Shown: positions 20,181-61,281 of the stretch, piece after piece
Layout: the number at the start of each line of letters is the position of its first letter
Position numbering within the stretch: position 1 is the first letter of the stretch
Virus genome (UHGV): UHGV-0287696
Reading direction: 5' to 3' (one strand)
DNA length: 64,000 bases
Source: a virus
Notes under the pieces: model-generated
Databases searched by the model: none
Told to the model about the DNA's origin: nothing
What the model saw: only the letters and a program-made list of their open reading frames with translations
Position numbers and translations under genes: made by a program

Positions 20181-20204
20181 ATTTACCTAAAGGAGCATTA
20201 AATG
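20181..20204 (+). promoter_or_regulatory. conserved translation-initiation region TTTACCTAAAGGAG(C/T)ATTAAA-ATG
   Basis: same leader found upstream of the ATGs at 25441 and 61279. Confidence 0.5.
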
Positions 20205-20717
20205 TCAGTAAATATTAACATGAATCTTTATACTAAACGTGAACGTCAGATCCTGGCGAATCAACCTGGCGTTACGACCATCGACGGTAAGCCTATTGAC
20301 CGTTTAAAAGTTATCGTTGCGCGAAATTGCCATGAACGCGATTGGGATATCACCTACTTCCGTTGCTGTTCGGTCGCAAACGCGCTTACCCAACTCTCCA
20401 ACTATCACCCAGGACCGCTATTAAAAGACTGGGTTTGGTTAGTCCCTAAAACTCCCTCAGCAATTGAGTATCCCGCTGGGTTAGTCTATATTCGACCTGT
20501 CGCTTACCCAGAACGTCTGAAAGAGTATCTTGAAGTTATCTGGAACCGTCCTCGTAAAGAGCTGGCGACGATTATTAATTTACTGCAACAGATCGATATC
20601 CCCGGTGTTTTGAATTTGAAACTCACGTCTCGCGATATTAACCAGGCTTACTGGGAACTGGAGTGGACAGAACCGAAATTCGAAAACACTAACCGTATTT
20701 TCTTGCACCGGGGGTAA
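20202..20717 (+). CDS. hypothetical protein
   Basis: 171 aa behind the conserved leader. Confidence 0.6.
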   Translation: MSVNINMNLYTKRERQILANQPGVTTIDGKPIDRLKVIVARNCHERDWDITYFRCCSVANALTQLSNYHPGPLLKDWVWLVPKTPSAIEYPAGLVYIRPVAYPERLKEYLEVIWNRPRKELATIINLLQQIDIPGVLNLKLTSRDINQAYWELEWTEPKFENTNRIFLHRG

Positions 20718-20719
20718 AA

Positions 20720-21001
20720 ATGTTAGATTGGTTGTTGGGATTAATTAACTCACGTCAACAGGAGCTTTATAAAGAAAACACGCGATTACGGCAGGAGCTT
20801 AGTAACAATCGTCAAACCAAACGACAATTAATTCGGATGGTAAAACAACAGGCGCGTTGTATACGTGATATCGATTATCAGTATCACCGTCTGAATACCT
20901 TAGACCCAACAACAAAAGCTTTAGGTAGTACGATTGGACACGCACGTAAAGTCAGTCACGATGCGTTAGTTCGAATCGATACAGTAGAAGAGAAACTGTG
21001 A
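20720..21001 (+). CDS. hypothetical basic protein
   Basis: 93 aa, Arg/Gln-rich and helical in appearance. Confidence 0.5.
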   Translation: MLDWLLGLINSRQQELYKENTRLRQELSNNRQTKRQLIRMVKQQARCIRDIDYQYHRLNTLDPTTKALGSTIGHARKVSHDALVRIDTVEEKL

Positions 21002-21044
21002 TATAACCCCTCTCAGGAACTCCTGAGAGGGAGGAGAAAGAAAG

Positions 21045-21353
21045 ATGCACGGTATTTTGATTATTCTTAAAGCCAAACTATACAAAATTGCCTTTTCTTT
21101 GTTTTACGGCCGTATTGTAGAAGAGGTTGTATCGGAATCCGAACCCCATGAAGAAACAGTGATTCGTTTTGGAAAGGAATACACAGTCATGGTTCGAGAT
21201 GTTGTGATAGACGTTTACTCTACCGGGGGAATCTTAAAAGGAAAACCTAAGCGTAGATTGTACGGTAAAAGACTTCCTTACATGAGAGATCATTTAATTC
21301 TGGGCTCGTTACAAGAATTTTTTAATTTAAGAGATAATGTAAGAAGTAAATGA
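21045..21353 (+). CDS. hypothetical protein
   Basis: 102 aa; start follows a stem-loop at 21007-21031. Confidence 0.45.
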   Translation: MHGILIILKAKLYKIAFSLFYGRIVEEVVSESEPHEETVIRFGKEYTVMVRDVVIDVYSTGGILKGKPKRRLYGKRLPYMRDHLILGSLQEFFNLRDNVRSK

Positions 21354-21356
21354 AAT

Positions 21357-21722
21357 ATGCTGAACAAAATTAAATATTGGTTAAACGATTCGTTTAAAAC
21401 CTGGGCTTGTGGTGCGAATGTCAAAACAGTAGTTAAATCGGGCGACTGGTATACAGAGATTATTACGTTAGCAAACGGAGGATTGCAAAACATACAAGTT
21501 CGTAACGTTGTTGTTAGAATAGGGCGCGAGGGAGGAGCAATCTTCAACTCTGAATACTATCTAGTTTCTGCCTTGGAATTGAAAAACGGCCCGATTCTAT
21601 TTAATGCTACAGCACAGAATCTTTACGACACGATGGTTAAGTTTGGTGAAAGAGTAAAACGTTTAAATGATTCGCTCAGTAAGTTTATTAAAGAAACTGA
21701 ACGAACCACGGTGGAGATTTAA
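21357..21722 (+). CDS. hypothetical protein
   Basis: 121-aa ORF. Confidence 0.45.
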   Translation: MLNKIKYWLNDSFKTWACGANVKTVVKSGDWYTEIITLANGGLQNIQVRNVVVRIGREGGAIFNSEYYLVSALELKNGPILFNATAQNLYDTMVKFGERVKRLNDSLSKFIKETERTTVEI

Positions 21723-21725
21723 AAG

Positions 21726-22034
21726 ATGGAAAACAAAATCACAAACACATCGGTACCTGAGAACATCGTCAACTATATTCTCCGCGGTGGGTTGTTAGAA
21801 GACAATAAAGAAACGTGCGATAAACTCGTTTCTCAACTACTGCCTATTCGTTCAGAATACTGCGAAATCGTTATCTTAGGTTCCGAGTATTGCGTACGCT
21901 CTTACTGCCGTCGTTTCGAAGCCTTACGCGTACCTCGTACGTTAGGCGGTGTGATCTTGCTGATTTCGTCTTTTCAAGACGCTCATGTGCGTGTGGCGAC
22001 CTGGATTGCCAAAGGAGGCGATAGTGGTTTTTAA
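21726..22034 (+). CDS. hypothetical Cys-containing protein
   Basis: 102-aa ORF. Confidence 0.45.
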   Translation: MENKITNTSVPENIVNYILRGGLLEDNKETCDKLVSQLLPIRSEYCEIVILGSEYCVRSYCRRFEALRVPRTLGGVILLISSFQDAHVRVATWIAKGGDSGF

Positions 22035-22311
22035 TTTATTTAAACGTAAGGAATGTCCTGTCTGCGAAACCAACGATAAAATTATCTCTACGCAAGATGA
22101 GCTAATAAAACAACAAGATAAGATGCTCACTGAAATGGGCGAACTTTATTTTAAACTTTGTGCTATTACCGAACTGATTAGTGAAGGTAAGTTATCGAAA
22201 GATGGTGGGTTAGAGTTGGTCAAGAAGGCAACGATTCACTGTCGTCCAGAAGTAGAAAAATATAAACTTGAAGTGAAACGTGAACTATGGGAGGTTATTA
22301 ATGAAGCGTGA
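22024..22311 (+). CDS. hypothetical protein with N-terminal CxxC motif
   Basis: ORF track frame 21985..22311; GTG at 22024 with GGAGG upstream; KECPVCETND zinc-ribbon-like motif. Confidence 0.4.
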   Translation: MVFNLFKRKECPVCETNDKIISTQDELIKQQDKMLTEMGELYFKLCAITELISEGKLSKDGGLELVKKATIHCRPEVEKYKLEVKRELWEVINEA

Positions 22312-59886: not shown

Positions 59887-59904
59887 TCTAAAGGAGTAGT
59901 TACA

Positions 59905-60390
59905 ATGAAACGTTTACACACTCTGATGTTCTTTCTGGTTTTCTTGTTTATCGGTGCCACGCCAACTGTAGATGCGGCCTCCGTAGACGAATTGCTTACC
60001 TGTGATGGAAACGCTTGGGAAGGTCAGCCAAATGCGTGCCCAAACATCAACGACTTGTACGATACCGATAAGTCGTTTAAAGCCGTTGTTGATAAAACAC
60101 TAGACCCTGTGGGACTGGATGGTATGTTCGGCTCTAAAGGTTACATGGATGGCCCTGGCGGTAACATGTATCCGGTAAACATCAACAACAAAATCTGGAT
60201 TGAAAGCGGCGGTTGTAAAGCTAACGCTTGTGGTTGGGAATACATCGTAACGCTATACAACCCACACACCAAGAAACTCGTCGGCTATTACTACAACATC
60301 GACCCCGGTTATCTGATTTGGTTCGGTGATATCGGTGTTGCCGAATTCGCTTACCTGGTTAAGAAATACGTAGAACAATCTAAATACTAA
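59905..60390 (+). CDS. secreted protein (signal peptide)
   Basis: 161 aa; MKRLHTLMFFLVFLFIGATPTVDA; AAGGAG Shine-Dalgarno. Confidence 0.6.
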   Translation: MKRLHTLMFFLVFLFIGATPTVDAASVDELLTCDGNAWEGQPNACPNINDLYDTDKSFKAVVDKTLDPVGLDGMFGSKGYMDGPGGNMYPVNINNKIWIESGGCKANACGWEYIVTLYNPHTKKLVGYYYNIDPGYLIWFGDIGVAEFAYLVKKYVEQSKY

Positions 60391-60401
60391 GGACTTTTAT
60401 C

Positions 60402-60812
60402 ATGAAAACTATCATTAATACTCTTCTCATTGCAATGGCTGTTCTGTTCTCTGTCAACGCTACAGCAAAAACAATACAGTTGCCAGACAATATTAAGTAC
60501 GTCAATAGCACCGATGATTTCTATTGTACGGAAATTGACGGCTTGTACTGTCAGGCAAAGAGCCTGTTTAAATACAAAGGTAGCAGATACGTATTCATCG
60601 TTGAGCAGGGTGGTGCCTGGTGTTACGACAGCCCAATGTCCGTACTCAACCTCGAAACGTGGAAGGCTCAGCGTCTCGAATACAACGACAAACGTCTGTG
60701 CTCTGGTAATAACAAACCATTCTTCGAAGTCGTAGATGGTGTGCCAATGGTAGGGATATTAGACACTTCGGAAAAACCTATCGTTGTAGCTATGGATAAA
60801 CTTAAAATTTAA
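60402..60812 (+). CDS. secreted protein (signal peptide)
   Basis: 136 aa; MKTIINTLLIAMAVLFSVNATA; contains Cys pairs. Confidence 0.6.
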   Translation: MKTIINTLLIAMAVLFSVNATAKTIQLPDNIKYVNSTDDFYCTEIDGLYCQAKSLFKYKGSRYVFIVEQGGAWCYDSPMSVLNLETWKAQRLEYNDKRLCSGNNKPFFEVVDGVPMVGILDTSEKPIVVAMDKLKI

Positions 60813-60822
60813 GGAGTAACTC

Positions 60823-61212
60823 ATGCGTCTCGTCTGCGTTTTAGCATTCTTCTTCTCCCTGAGTGTAGCAGCATCTACCCAAGTTAACGATTTACTGCTA
60901 ACCCCAAACAACAATACCGATTACCAGTACAATCCTCCGGGGTTTGAAGTTTGCGAAGTCGGTGAAACAATCTGCCAAGAAGTCGGCGCAGACGGGCGCT
61001 ATATTCTGGTAAAAGCTGACGGTGGCACAATGTGTCCCGCAGGTTATTACTTTCTGCTCGATTCCGTCGCAAGAGAGGTTCTTCCTATCACCACGAAAAC
61101 GTGCGACCCTACCGTTGTCTTAACTCTCGCTAAAAGCAAATCTCGCGACCGTTATCTGATCGTTATCGAAGAACGGGGCAAGATGGCGGGTGCTATTGAA
61201 TTAGATCATTGA
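60823..61212 (+). CDS. secreted protein (signal peptide)
   Basis: 129 aa; MRLVCVLAFFFSLSVAAS; AAGGAG Shine-Dalgarno. Confidence 0.6.
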   Translation: MRLVCVLAFFFSLSVAASTQVNDLLLTPNNNTDYQYNPPGFEVCEVGETICQEVGADGRYILVKADGGTMCPAGYYFLLDSVAREVLPITTKTCDPTVVLTLAKSKSRDRYLIVIEERGKMAGAIELDH

Positions 61213-61222
61213 GTGTAGTCTT

Positions 61223-61250
61223 GACCCCGGTACGTCCGGGGTCCTTTTTA
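61223..61250 (+). terminator. rho-independent terminator
   Basis: hairpin gaccccgg-tacgt-ccggggtc followed by ctttttac. Confidence 0.7.
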
Positions 61251-61256
61251 CGACAT

Positions 61257-61281
61257 GTTTACCTAAAGGAGTATTAAAATG
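61257..61281 (+). promoter_or_regulatory. conserved translation-initiation region (identical to the copy at 25418)
   Basis: gtttacctaaaggagtattaaaatg. Confidence 0.5.

What the first reader, a model, noticed from the sequence alone, without database searches (positions are those of the whole stretch)
20181..61281. 24-nt identical translation-initiation region upstream of three unrelated genes
TTTACCTAAAGGAG(T/C)ATTAAA-ATG occurs at 20181, 25418 and 61257; the last two are identical over 24 nt, each just after a terminator hairpin. Conservation beyond the Shine-Dalgarno suggests a shared translational enhancer, a regulator binding site, or recombination-spread gene starts.
Basis: seen in the sequence. 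Interest (0 to 1): 0.5.

Follow-up and report, generated by a model that had tools for sequence, protein, structure and literature searches.

The report
Shared ribosome-binding leader in jumbo phage
Several unrelated genes of a new SPN3US-like giant phage begin behind the same ~20-base ribosome-landing sequence, which is this phage group's near-ideal translation start signal and is kept unchanged by selection; it is real but largely ordinary.

Summary
TTTACCTAAAGGAG occurs at 20182, 25420 and 61258. The last two sites are identical over 24 nt through the ATG. All three precede unrelated genes. The window is a new jumbo phage, ~50% protein identity to SPN3US/phiEaH2, which encode their own RNA polymerases.

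The 24-mer is this phage's own consensus translation-initiation region: a 6-bp Shine-Dalgarno (SD), the commonest (7-nt) A/U spacer, an A/U-rich 5' flank and an unstructured leader. Only "CC" departs from the consensus.

The core CCTAAAGGAG-N-ATTAA is invariant in five genomes at all three sites (0/47 columns vary, against 48% of flanking intergenic columns). Only the base after GGAG varies.

Complete relatives carry a fourth copy before the non-virion RNA polymerase beta gene. There the motif lies downstream of a conserved promoter box, so it is inside the transcript.

CCT[A/T]AAGGA is the preferred strong start signal genome-wide in phiEaH2, and it is absent from structural genes.

Best reading: a selected high-efficiency translation leader on probably early genes. 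A promoter role is disfavoured. A phage regulator site of the T4 RegB/S1 kind is not excluded, but no RegA/RegB homologue was found. Gene-content breakpoints do fall at these start regions. The conserved "CC", beyond the reach of 16S rRNA, is unexplained.

The parts
20182..20204 (+). Site 1: TTTACCTAAAGGAGCATTAA-ATG, the leader and start codon of gene 20202-20717 (171 aa, phrog_8180). The spacer is 6 nt and there is no terminator upstream.
   Evidence: The core CCTAAAGGAGCATTAA is invariant in 4 relatives while TTTA varies (AATC, TCTA). The orthologues keep CCCCCTGAAGGAGTATTACC-GTG (phiEaH2) and ATCCTAAGGAGCATTAA-GTG (SPN3US).
25420..25443 (+). Site 2: TTTACCTAAAGGAGTATTAAA-ATG, the leader and start codon of gene 25441-25872 (143 aa, phrog_8484).
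   Evidence: It is invariant in 4 relatives except the base after GGAG (T or C). The phiEaH2 orthologue has TATTACCATTAGGAGCATTACC-ATG after a terminator.
61258..61281 (+). Site 3: TTTACCTAAAGGAGTATTAAA-ATG, the leader and start codon of gene 61279-61755 (158 aa, phrog_8115).
   Evidence: It is invariant in 4 relatives except the base after GGAG (T or A) and a T insertion 5' of TTTACC. The phiEaH2 orthologue has AAACCTTAAGGATTACCC-ATG.
25389..25408 (+). Intrinsic terminator hairpin directly upstream of site 2. Its U-rich tail (CTATTATTGTATTT) runs into the TTTA of the motif.
   Evidence: Loop and stem substitutions in relatives keep the hairpin.
61223..61243 (+). Intrinsic terminator hairpin upstream of site 3, with tail CTTTTTACGA. 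Gene 61279-61755 is bracketed by this terminator and the one at 61763-61782.
   Evidence: Loop changes in relatives.
56277..56298 (+). Weaker copy: CCCCTAAAGGAGAGTAAAA-ATG before gene 56296-57447.
59885..59907 (+). Weaker copy: AATCTAAAGGAGTAGTTACA-ATG before gene 59905-60390.
65..88 (+). Weaker copy: TCAACCTGAAGGAGTATTATC-ATG before gene 86-757.
24189..24213 (+). Weak copy: TTTACCAAAAAGGAAAAAAGAC-ATG before gene 24211-25371. It shares TTTACC and the A-rich run.

Best explanation
The repeated sequence is a translation-initiation leader. It is read on the mRNA by the host ribosome and kept at or near the clade's optimal consensus by selection on a subset of probably early-expressed genes.

Its parts are:
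- AAGGAG pairs with the 3' end of 16S rRNA over 6 bp.
- The base after GGAG is free but never G, so the duplex is not lengthened.
- A 6-7 nt A/U-only spacer (ATTAA[A]) puts the AUG at the commonest distance.
- The 5' flank UUUA is A/U-rich, the kind of sequence ribosomal protein S1 prefers. It resembles the T7 gene 10 epsilon enhancer.
- The whole region is kept free of secondary structure.
- The conserved CC (ACC), 4-5 nt 5' of GGAG, belongs to the same selected unit, but its molecular partner is unknown.

Shown: the location, the match to the consensus, purifying selection, clade-wide use, and position inside a transcribed leader. Inferred: that the non-SD positions raise translation, and that the genes are early.
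For: (1) Always 6-7 nt before the ATG of a real gene, on the coding strand.

(2) Upstream-enriched k-mers in the window are all SD-centred: TAAAGGAG, AAGGAGTA, CTAAAGGA, CCTAAAGG, GGAGTATT. Except for CC and the third T of TTTA, the motif carries the modal or near-modal base at each start-region position, and it has the modal 7-nt spacing.

(3) Purifying selection. Across the window plus 4 relatives retrieved by protein similarity, the core has 0/47 variable columns. Flanking intergenic columns show 81/169 variable and codon third positions 36/87 (Fisher p = 7e-12 and 7e-9). The position after GGAG varies at 2 of 3 sites. In 42 other gene starts, positions -20 to -1 are no more conserved than their flanks.

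(4) Clade-wide use. In the complete phiEaH2 genome CCTAAAGGA occurs 11 times (10 before starts) and CCTTAAGGA 11 times (8 before starts), against 0 for ACTAAAGGA and 1 for GCTAAAGGA. It also occurs inside operons, overlapping upstream coding sequence or the upstream stop codon. That fits a ribosome signal, not a promoter.

(5) Inside transcripts. In the nvRNAP-beta gene (fourth copy) the motif lies ~10 nt downstream of a promoter-like box, ATA[GT]ATATTATC, that is conserved across 6 genera in a ~70-nt divergent intergenic region. AACC, GGAG and YAWT are also conserved there. In SPN3US-like contigs and phiEaH2 it lies 30-45 nt downstream of early-promoter-plus-hairpin elements.

(6) The leaders fold no better than shuffled sequence, or worse (z = +1.9, +0.3, +1.4).

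(7) Orthologues in other genera keep ACC...AGGAG-YATT at 26-75% protein identity.

(8) The same core precedes start codons in many unrelated phages.

(9) Gene-class bias. None of ~40 phiEaH2 structural genes has the motif. In the window all copies lie in + strand small-gene blocks that carry early-promoter-like elements.
Against: - No expression data exist for this phage or any SPN3US-type relative, so enhanced translation and early timing are inferred.
- CC cannot pair with 16S rRNA, because the rRNA ends opposite the A that precedes AAGGAG. No known ribosomal contact explains it.
- An 'A/U only' rule, which allows only rare A<->T transversions, could explain the invariant spacer without sequence-specific recognition.
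- Under independent per-position preferences, 24-nt identity is very unlikely (4e-7). So either selection on this subclass is much tighter than average, or common descent or gene conversion contributes.
- The start-site sets come from a simple heuristic gene finder.
Confidence: 0.65

Rival explanations
1. The motif is the target of a phage-encoded post-transcriptional regulator, either a repressor or an endoribonuclease. This would shut off or tune a small regulon of early mRNAs, as T4 RegB/S1 (which cleaves GGAG within an 11-nt single-stranded site) and T4 RegA (which binds start regions) do. This can coexist with the translation-leader role.
For: - The same extended sequence sits on at least 4 unrelated genes per genome, including nvRNAP beta.
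- Positions beyond the SD are invariant.
- GGAGUAUUAAA matches the T4 RegB/S1 consensus GGAGRAYARAA at 9 of 11 positions, and like that site it is single-stranded and in early-type SDs.
- Structural genes lack the motif.
Against: - tblastn finds no RegB or RegA homologue in the window, the complete phiEaH2 genome or the fetched relatives (only noise, E > 3).
- The mismatch to the RegB site falls at position 8, one of its most conserved A's, and at position 5, where C is counter-selected in T4 but occurs here.
- The resemblance is expected for any A-rich spacer after GGAG.
- No candidate RNA-binding protein was identified.
Confidence: 0.12
2. The identity reflects spread or homogenisation by recombination. 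Conserved start regions would act as short homology for cassette exchange or gene conversion, as PeSL regulatory cassettes do in T4-type phages, so the 24-mers are identical by descent.
For: - Sites 2 and 3 are single genes bracketed by terminators, that is, cassette-like.
- Relatives differ by insertion or replacement of a whole gene immediately upstream of site 1. The junctions are at a stop+SD sequence (window 20160-20166) and, in L139, exactly at the start of CCTAAAGGAG (window 20186).
- 24-nt identity is far beyond what the per-position preferences predict.
- PeSL is a precedent.
Against: - The similarity stops exactly at the ATG and does not extend into either flank.
- The terminators upstream of sites 2 and 3 are unrelated in sequence.
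- The orthologue of each gene in phiEaH2/SPN3US already carries the same type of leader, so the motif is old at each locus.
- The one free position differs between sites and between orthologues while the rest stays fixed. That is a selection pattern, not a recency pattern.
Confidence: 0.12
3. The motif is, or contains, a compact promoter or initiation site for one of the phage's own RNA polymerases, with transcription starting at or just upstream of the SD. This would explain why genes placed right after terminators are expressed.
For: - Sites 2 and 3 follow terminators by only ~11-14 nt, with no other recognisable promoter.
- Host-type promoters are not enriched.
- Middle and late promoters of phiKZ-like phages are very short or weak and cannot be predicted bioinformatically.
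- TTAC is shared with the early-promoter core TATATTAC.
- TTTTTAC recurs after terminators.
Against: - The motif occurs downstream of conserved promoter boxes and 5' hairpins, inside leaders.
- It occurs inside operons, overlapping upstream coding sequence.
- Its distance to the start codon is fixed.
- The part most like a promoter (TTTA) is the least conserved.
- It matches none of the phiKZ motifs: the AT-rich early box, TACT at -22, or TATG at +1.
- A start inside it would give leaders of under ~20 nt, whereas phiKZ leaders are typically 31-40 nt and none are leaderless.
- Leaky internal terminators are normal in this phage family.
Confidence: 0.07

Closest known systems
Canonical bacterial translation-initiation region: Shine-Dalgarno, A/U-rich flanks bound by ribosomal protein S1, an optimal spacer and an unstructured leader
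   Same: AAGGAG lies 6-7 nt before the AUG, the flanks are A/U-rich, and there is no stable structure. The same core precedes start codons in many unrelated phages.
   Different: Positions that cannot pair with 16S rRNA (CC, 4-5 nt 5' of GGAG) are conserved across genera. Several unrelated genes share an identical 20-24 nt version.
Phage T7 gene 10 leader 'epsilon' translational enhancer (UUAACUUUAA, directly 5' of the SD; sequence as quoted in PMC9590205)
   Same: It sits in the same position immediately 5' of the SD. UUUACCUAAA matches it at 7/10 positions and the phiEaH2/SPN3US-type UUAACCUAAA at 8/10. Both belong to a virulent phage with its own RNA polymerase.
   Different: The sequences are not identical, and the similarity is within what A/U-rich 10-mers can give by chance (my estimate: a few per cent). 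No functional test was done. Epsilon is known from one T7 gene, whereas this motif is on several genes.
T4 RegB/S1 target site on early mRNAs (GGAGRAYARAA; PMC1702504) and T4 RegA translational operators
   Same: An extended, single-stranded sequence shared by the SD regions of unrelated early genes. GGAGUAUUAAA matches the RegB/S1 consensus at 9/11 positions.
   Different: No RegB or RegA homologue was detected. The mismatches fall at position 8, one of the most conserved A's of that site, and at position 5, a more tolerant position. The conserved 5' part (ACC) has no counterpart, since RegB/S1 needs nothing 5' of GGAG.
PeSL (promoter-early stem-loop) mobile regulatory cassettes of T4-type phages (PMC2839356)
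   Same: Short conserved regulatory sequences next to terminator stem-loops flank small genes of unknown function in plastic regions. Gene insertion and replacement breakpoints coincide with them.
   Different: Here the repeated unit is only the ribosome-binding leader. The stem-loops are unrelated in sequence, no promoter is included, and no mini-circles or exchange between loci were shown.
Promoters of phiKZ-like jumbo phages: an early AT-rich ~10-nt box at -10, a middle TACT at -22, and a late T(-3)ATG(+1)
   Same: The window has clear early-type boxes (TTTCAGATATATATTAC...). These share TTAC with the motif.
   Different: The motif lies downstream of such boxes, is tied to the start codon, and lacks their defining sequences.

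Membership tests
Shine-Dalgarno translation-initiation region | A purine-rich sequence complementary to the 3' end of 16S rRNA, 5-10 nt upstream of a start codon of a real gene | tested here: met
   AAGGAG lies 6-7 nt before the ATG of ORFs that have homologues. Complementarity to ...CCUCCUUA-3' follows from established knowledge of enterobacterial 16S rRNA. The host is inferred from the relatives.
Shine-Dalgarno translation-initiation region | Accessible (unstructured) in the mRNA | tested here: met
   Folding energies are no better than shuffles, or worse (z = +1.9, +0.3, +1.4).
Shine-Dalgarno translation-initiation region | Actually directs ribosome binding and initiation | not testable with these tools
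   This needs toeprinting, reporters or ribosome profiling.
Translational enhancer of the T7 epsilon type | A sequence 5' of the SD that raises translation independently of the SD | not testable with these tools
   Only sequence resemblance (7-8 of 10 positions) and purifying selection on CC are available.
T4 RegB/S1 cleavage site | An 11-nt single-stranded site, GGAGRAYARAA | tested here: inconclusive
   9 of 11 positions match. The mismatches are at positions 5 and 8. The site is single-stranded.
T4 RegB/S1 or RegA system | The phage encodes a RegB endoribonuclease or a RegA repressor | tested here: not met
   tblastn with T4 RegB and RegA against the window, the complete phiEaH2 genome, SPN3US locus L002 and the fetched relatives gave only noise (E > 3). 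This is BLAST sensitivity only, and the full genome of this phage was not available.
PeSL-type mobile regulatory cassette | A conserved composite of a promoter plus a terminator stem-loop, repeated through plastic regions | tested here: not met
   The stem-loops upstream of sites 2 and 3 are unrelated in sequence, and no promoter lies in the repeated part.
PeSL-type mobile regulatory cassette | Gene insertion, deletion or replacement breakpoints located at the repeated sequence | tested here: inconclusive
   One locus (site 1) shows junctions at a stop+SD sequence and exactly at CCTAAAGGAG. There is no genome-wide breakpoint statistic.
phiKZ-like phage promoter (early, middle or late) | An AT-rich box centred at -10, or TACT at -22, or TATG at the start site, upstream of a mapped transcript 5' end | tested here: not met
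   The motif lacks these sequences and lies downstream of conserved promoter boxes. Transcript 5' ends are not available.
Known structured RNA family (Rfam) | A match to a curated covariance model | tested here: not met
   No Rfam family reaches its gathering score anywhere in the window.

The most novel reading that the evidence does not exclude
The ACC-N(2-3)-AAGGAG-N-AUUAA leader is a clade-specific recognition element, not merely a strong ribosome-binding site. A phage factor, or a phage-modified ribosome, would read it to give a small set of early mRNAs priority in translation, or a timed shut-off. That set includes the mRNA for the non-virion RNA polymerase beta subunit. This would be a translational regulon in nucleus-forming SPN3US-like jumbo phages, whose mRNAs must compete for host ribosomes outside the phage compartment.
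Probability: 0.12. Interest if true: 0.6.

Novelty: new member of a known kind. Interest (0 to 1): 0.3.

Why it matters
If the main reading is right, the element offers three things: a compact, portable, strongly selected translation leader from an uncultured SPN3US-like jumbo phage; a marker for a gene class, since it is absent from structural genes; and a useful anchor for annotating true start codons in these poorly annotated genomes.

The only real puzzle is the cross-genus conservation of ACC 4-5 nt upstream of the Shine-Dalgarno. The 16S rRNA has already ended at that point, so if ACC matters functionally it points to a contact or factor not covered by the standard initiation model. The breakpoints at start regions also illustrate how gene cassettes are swapped in jumbo phages.

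Tried and rejected
- **Early virion-RNAP promoter.** The window has its own clear early-type boxes (TTTCAGATATATATTACTTARGTGAGAG at ~18789, 22592, 58937, plus 54658 and a degenerate copy at 4937). The sequences 5' of the three sites do not match them, apart from a loose TGTAT[T]TAC at site 2.
- **phiKZ late TATG start.** It is absent from the window motif. TATG does occur after GGAG in several phiEaH2 copies, but not here.
- **Extended pairing with 16S rRNA.** The rRNA 3' end lies opposite the A that precedes AAGGAG, so CC and the spacer cannot pair (reasoned from the known 3' end).
- **Motif TAA as the upstream gene's stop codon (translational coupling).** This is true for one phiEaH2 gene (32343) but for none of the window sites.
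- **A small upstream ORF ending at that TAA.** There is no in-frame start nearby (read).
- **A hairpin sequestering the SD.** Site 1 has ATTTAC...GTAAAT around the SD and AUG, but sites 2 and 3 have nothing similar and the minimum-free-energy structures are weak.
- **Paralogy of the three genes.** Rejected.
- **Known RNA family or tRNA.** None found.
- **Collection scans with the 14-mer and the 17-mer.** A 19-base pattern gave the complete list.
- **Published transcript maps for SPN3US-type phages.** None found.

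
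Full report
**Observation**

The pattern search and direct reading confirm TTTACCTAAAGGAG on the + strand at 20182, 25420 and 61258.
- Sites 2 and 3 are identical over 24 nt through the ATG (25420-25443 and 61258-61281).
- Site 1 reads TTTACCTAAAGGAGCATTAA-ATG, with a C after GGAG and a spacer one base shorter.
- No shuffle gave a match.
- Under a null built from this phage's own start-region base frequencies and spacer lengths, the expected number of identical pairs is ~4e-7.
- The downstream ORFs (171, 143 and 158 aa) belong to different PHROG families and show no significant similarity to each other.
- Intrinsic terminators precede sites 2 and 3 (25389-25408 and 61223-61243) but not site 1.

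**What the window is**

It shares almost no DNA with deposited phages. The exception is a ~40-70 bp element at 22582-22650. Its proteins are 47-57% identical to those of Erwinia phage phiEaH2 and Salmonella phage SPN3US. These are phiKZ-like jumbo phages that transcribe with their own virion and non-virion RNA polymerases (review PMC7598289). IMG/VR holds five close relatives at 80-99% DNA identity.

**The motif is the phage's consensus start region**
- K-mers enriched upstream of the window's genes are all centred on the Shine-Dalgarno: TAAAGGAG, AAGGAGTA, CTAAAGGA, CCTAAAGG, GGAGTATT.
- Aligned on GGAG, the 24-mer carries the modal or near-modal base at each position except CC and the third T of TTTA, and it has the modal 7-nt spacing.
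- The leaders fold no better than shuffled sequence, or worse.
- No Rfam family or tRNA is present.
- The core CCTAAAGGAG-N-ATTAAA also precedes start codons in many unrelated phages.

**Selection**

Orthologous upstream regions were retrieved by protein similarity, so there is no bias towards motif-bearing sequences.
- The core CCTAAAGGAG plus ATTAA(A) has 0 variable columns out of 47 across five genomes and three sites.
- Flanking intergenic columns show 48% variable, and codon third positions 41%.
- The base right after GGAG varies (T, C or A, never G), and TTTA varies at site 1.
- In 42 other gene starts, positions -20 to -1 are no more conserved than their surroundings.
- Caveat: an 'A/U only' rule could by itself keep the spacer constant.

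**Clade-wide use**

In the complete phiEaH2 genome:

| 9-mer | Occurrences | Before a called start |
|---|---|---|
| CCTAAAGGA | 11 | 10 |
| CCTTAAGGA | 11 | 8 |
| ACTAAAGGA | 0 | 0 |
| GCTAAAGGA | 1 | 1 |

- None of ~40 structural genes has the motif.
- It occurs inside operons, sometimes overlapping the upstream gene or using its stop codon.
- Orthologues of the three window genes in phiEaH2 or SPN3US keep ACC...AGGAG-YATT at 26-57% protein identity.

**A fourth copy, and a natural test of promoter versus leader**

A complete scan for CCTAAAGGAGNATTAAAATG shows that each ~225-kb relative has a further copy outside the window.
- It sits before a 745-aa protein that matches the RNA polymerase beta family and PHIKZ071 of the solved phiKZ non-virion polymerase.
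- phiKZ's non-virion polymerase is encoded among its early genes.
- In 12 genomes of 6 genera this gene lies ~70 nt from a divergent neighbour.
- The alignment shows a conserved promoter-like box, ATA[GT]ATATTATC. About 10 nt later comes a conserved AACC (ACAC in two genomes), then 4-5 nt, GGAG, YAWT and ATG.
- So the motif is downstream of the promoter, in the transcript.
- In phiEaH2 and SPN3US-like contigs it likewise lies 30-45 nt downstream of early-promoter-plus-hairpin elements.

**Mechanism**
- Shown: position, consensus character, selection, clade-wide use, and location in leaders.
- Inferred: high-efficiency initiation through a 6-bp SD duplex, optimal A/U spacer, A/U-rich 5' flank and open structure, serving probably early genes.
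- Unexplained: CC cannot pair with 16S rRNA, which ends opposite the A before AAGGAG.

**Rivals**
- Regulator site of the T4 RegB/S1 or RegA kind. GGAGUAUUAAA matches GGAGRAYARAA at 9 of 11 positions, but no RegA or RegB homologue was found.
- Recombination spread, following the PeSL precedent. Relatives differ by a whole gene inserted or replaced just upstream of site 1, with junctions at a stop+SD sequence and exactly at CCTAAAGGAG. However, the similarity ends at the ATG, the terminators are unrelated, and each locus has kept its leader across genera.
- Promoter. Disfavoured for the reasons above. It also matches no known phiKZ promoter motif, and it would give unusually short leaders.

**Comparison and verdict**

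The element behaves like a strong Shine-Dalgarno leader with an enhancer-like 5' part that resembles T7 epsilon (7-8 of 10 positions). It is a new member of a known kind. Interest is modest. The one non-trivial point is the conserved ACC upstream of the SD.

Noticed in passing
window 18789-18817, 22592-22620, 58937-58965, 54648-54676; degenerate copy at 4937-4990: An early-promoter-type element, aaaataatTTCAGATATATATTACTTARGTGAGAG, all on the + strand, AT-rich upstream and usually followed by a hairpin (GTGAGAG...CTCTCAC) and TTAACTAAA. The copy at 22582-22650 is the only stretch of the tested segment 19000-27000 with DNA-level matches to SPN3US, phiEaH2 and Asesino. It fits the literature description of virion-RNAP early promoters.
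   Followed up: partly
L257-L261 (phiEaH2), e.g. record positions 22073, 38323, 38746, 91036, 148074, 170916, 224536, 226431, 233680, 234339, 234635; SPN3US locus L002 ~10370: A conserved leader module, [hairpin or terminator]-TAAT TCGAC(C/T)AT-(mostly 8-12 nt)-GGAG-ATG, with at least 13 intergenic copies. Some follow an early promoter plus 5' hairpin and others follow terminators. The window's sites carry degenerate versions (CACCATTTACC, CGACATGTTTACC). Its function is unknown: leader element, processing site or second promoter.
   Followed up: partly
IMG/VR relatives L272, L282, L175, L263; phiEaH2 ~195760, 107620, 162345, 173865, 190515; loci L285-L292: A second promoter-like box, (G)ATA(G/T)ATATTATC(C/T), conserved across 6 genera upstream of the non-virion RNA polymerase beta gene and present before several other phiEaH2 genes. 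An invariant G lies 6-7 nt downstream and may mark the transcription start.
   Followed up: partly
window 799, 4239, 6333, 26014, 61245, 62465 (+ strand): TTTTTAC(A/G)(A/C)C recurs just after terminator T-tracts, 18-54 nt before the next start codon. 6 of the 14 + strand TTTTTAC copies lie in the ~9% of the window that is intergenic. It may be only the terminator tail, or a weak promoter-type signal.
   Followed up: no
window 20156-20186 versus L138, L139, L140 (positions ~600-1500): Relatives carry an extra gene between the orthologue of 19712-20155 and gene 20202: 280-281 aa in two relatives, and a different 175-aa gene in a third. The window and L137 lack it. The junctions fall at TTTAAGGAAC (stop + SD) and at or just before the motif.
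   Followed up: partly
window 26014-26041 (gene 26039-26887): This gene has no recognisable Shine-Dalgarno. Its upstream GAGTTAACGCG-ATG is conserved in SPN3US (L002 ~11720), which suggests an unusual but conserved mode of initiation.
   Followed up: no
window 25389-25408 / 25879-25906 and 61223-61243 / 61763-61782 / 62426-62447: Several single small genes are bracketed by intrinsic terminators on both sides with no recognisable promoter between them. They look like moron-like units, or like the leaky internal terminators described for phiKZ and 201phi2-1.
   Followed up: no
window 10136-10991, 53190-53656, 54623-54942: Unusually long stretches without confidently called genes (856, 467 and 320 nt). 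The last holds an early-type promoter box followed by a long hairpin (54679-54712). They may encode small RNAs or small proteins.
   Followed up: no
window 10992-18738 and 29423-54622: Gene content. There is a 1532-aa tail-fibre protein with a T4 gp34-type trimerisation domain and an endosialidase-chaperone C-terminus, and a second fibre protein of 644 aa. A minus-strand block encodes very large proteins (1727, 1401 and 1440 aa). Only the 1440-aa one was searched; it matches SPN3US-type virion structural proteins.
   Followed up: partly
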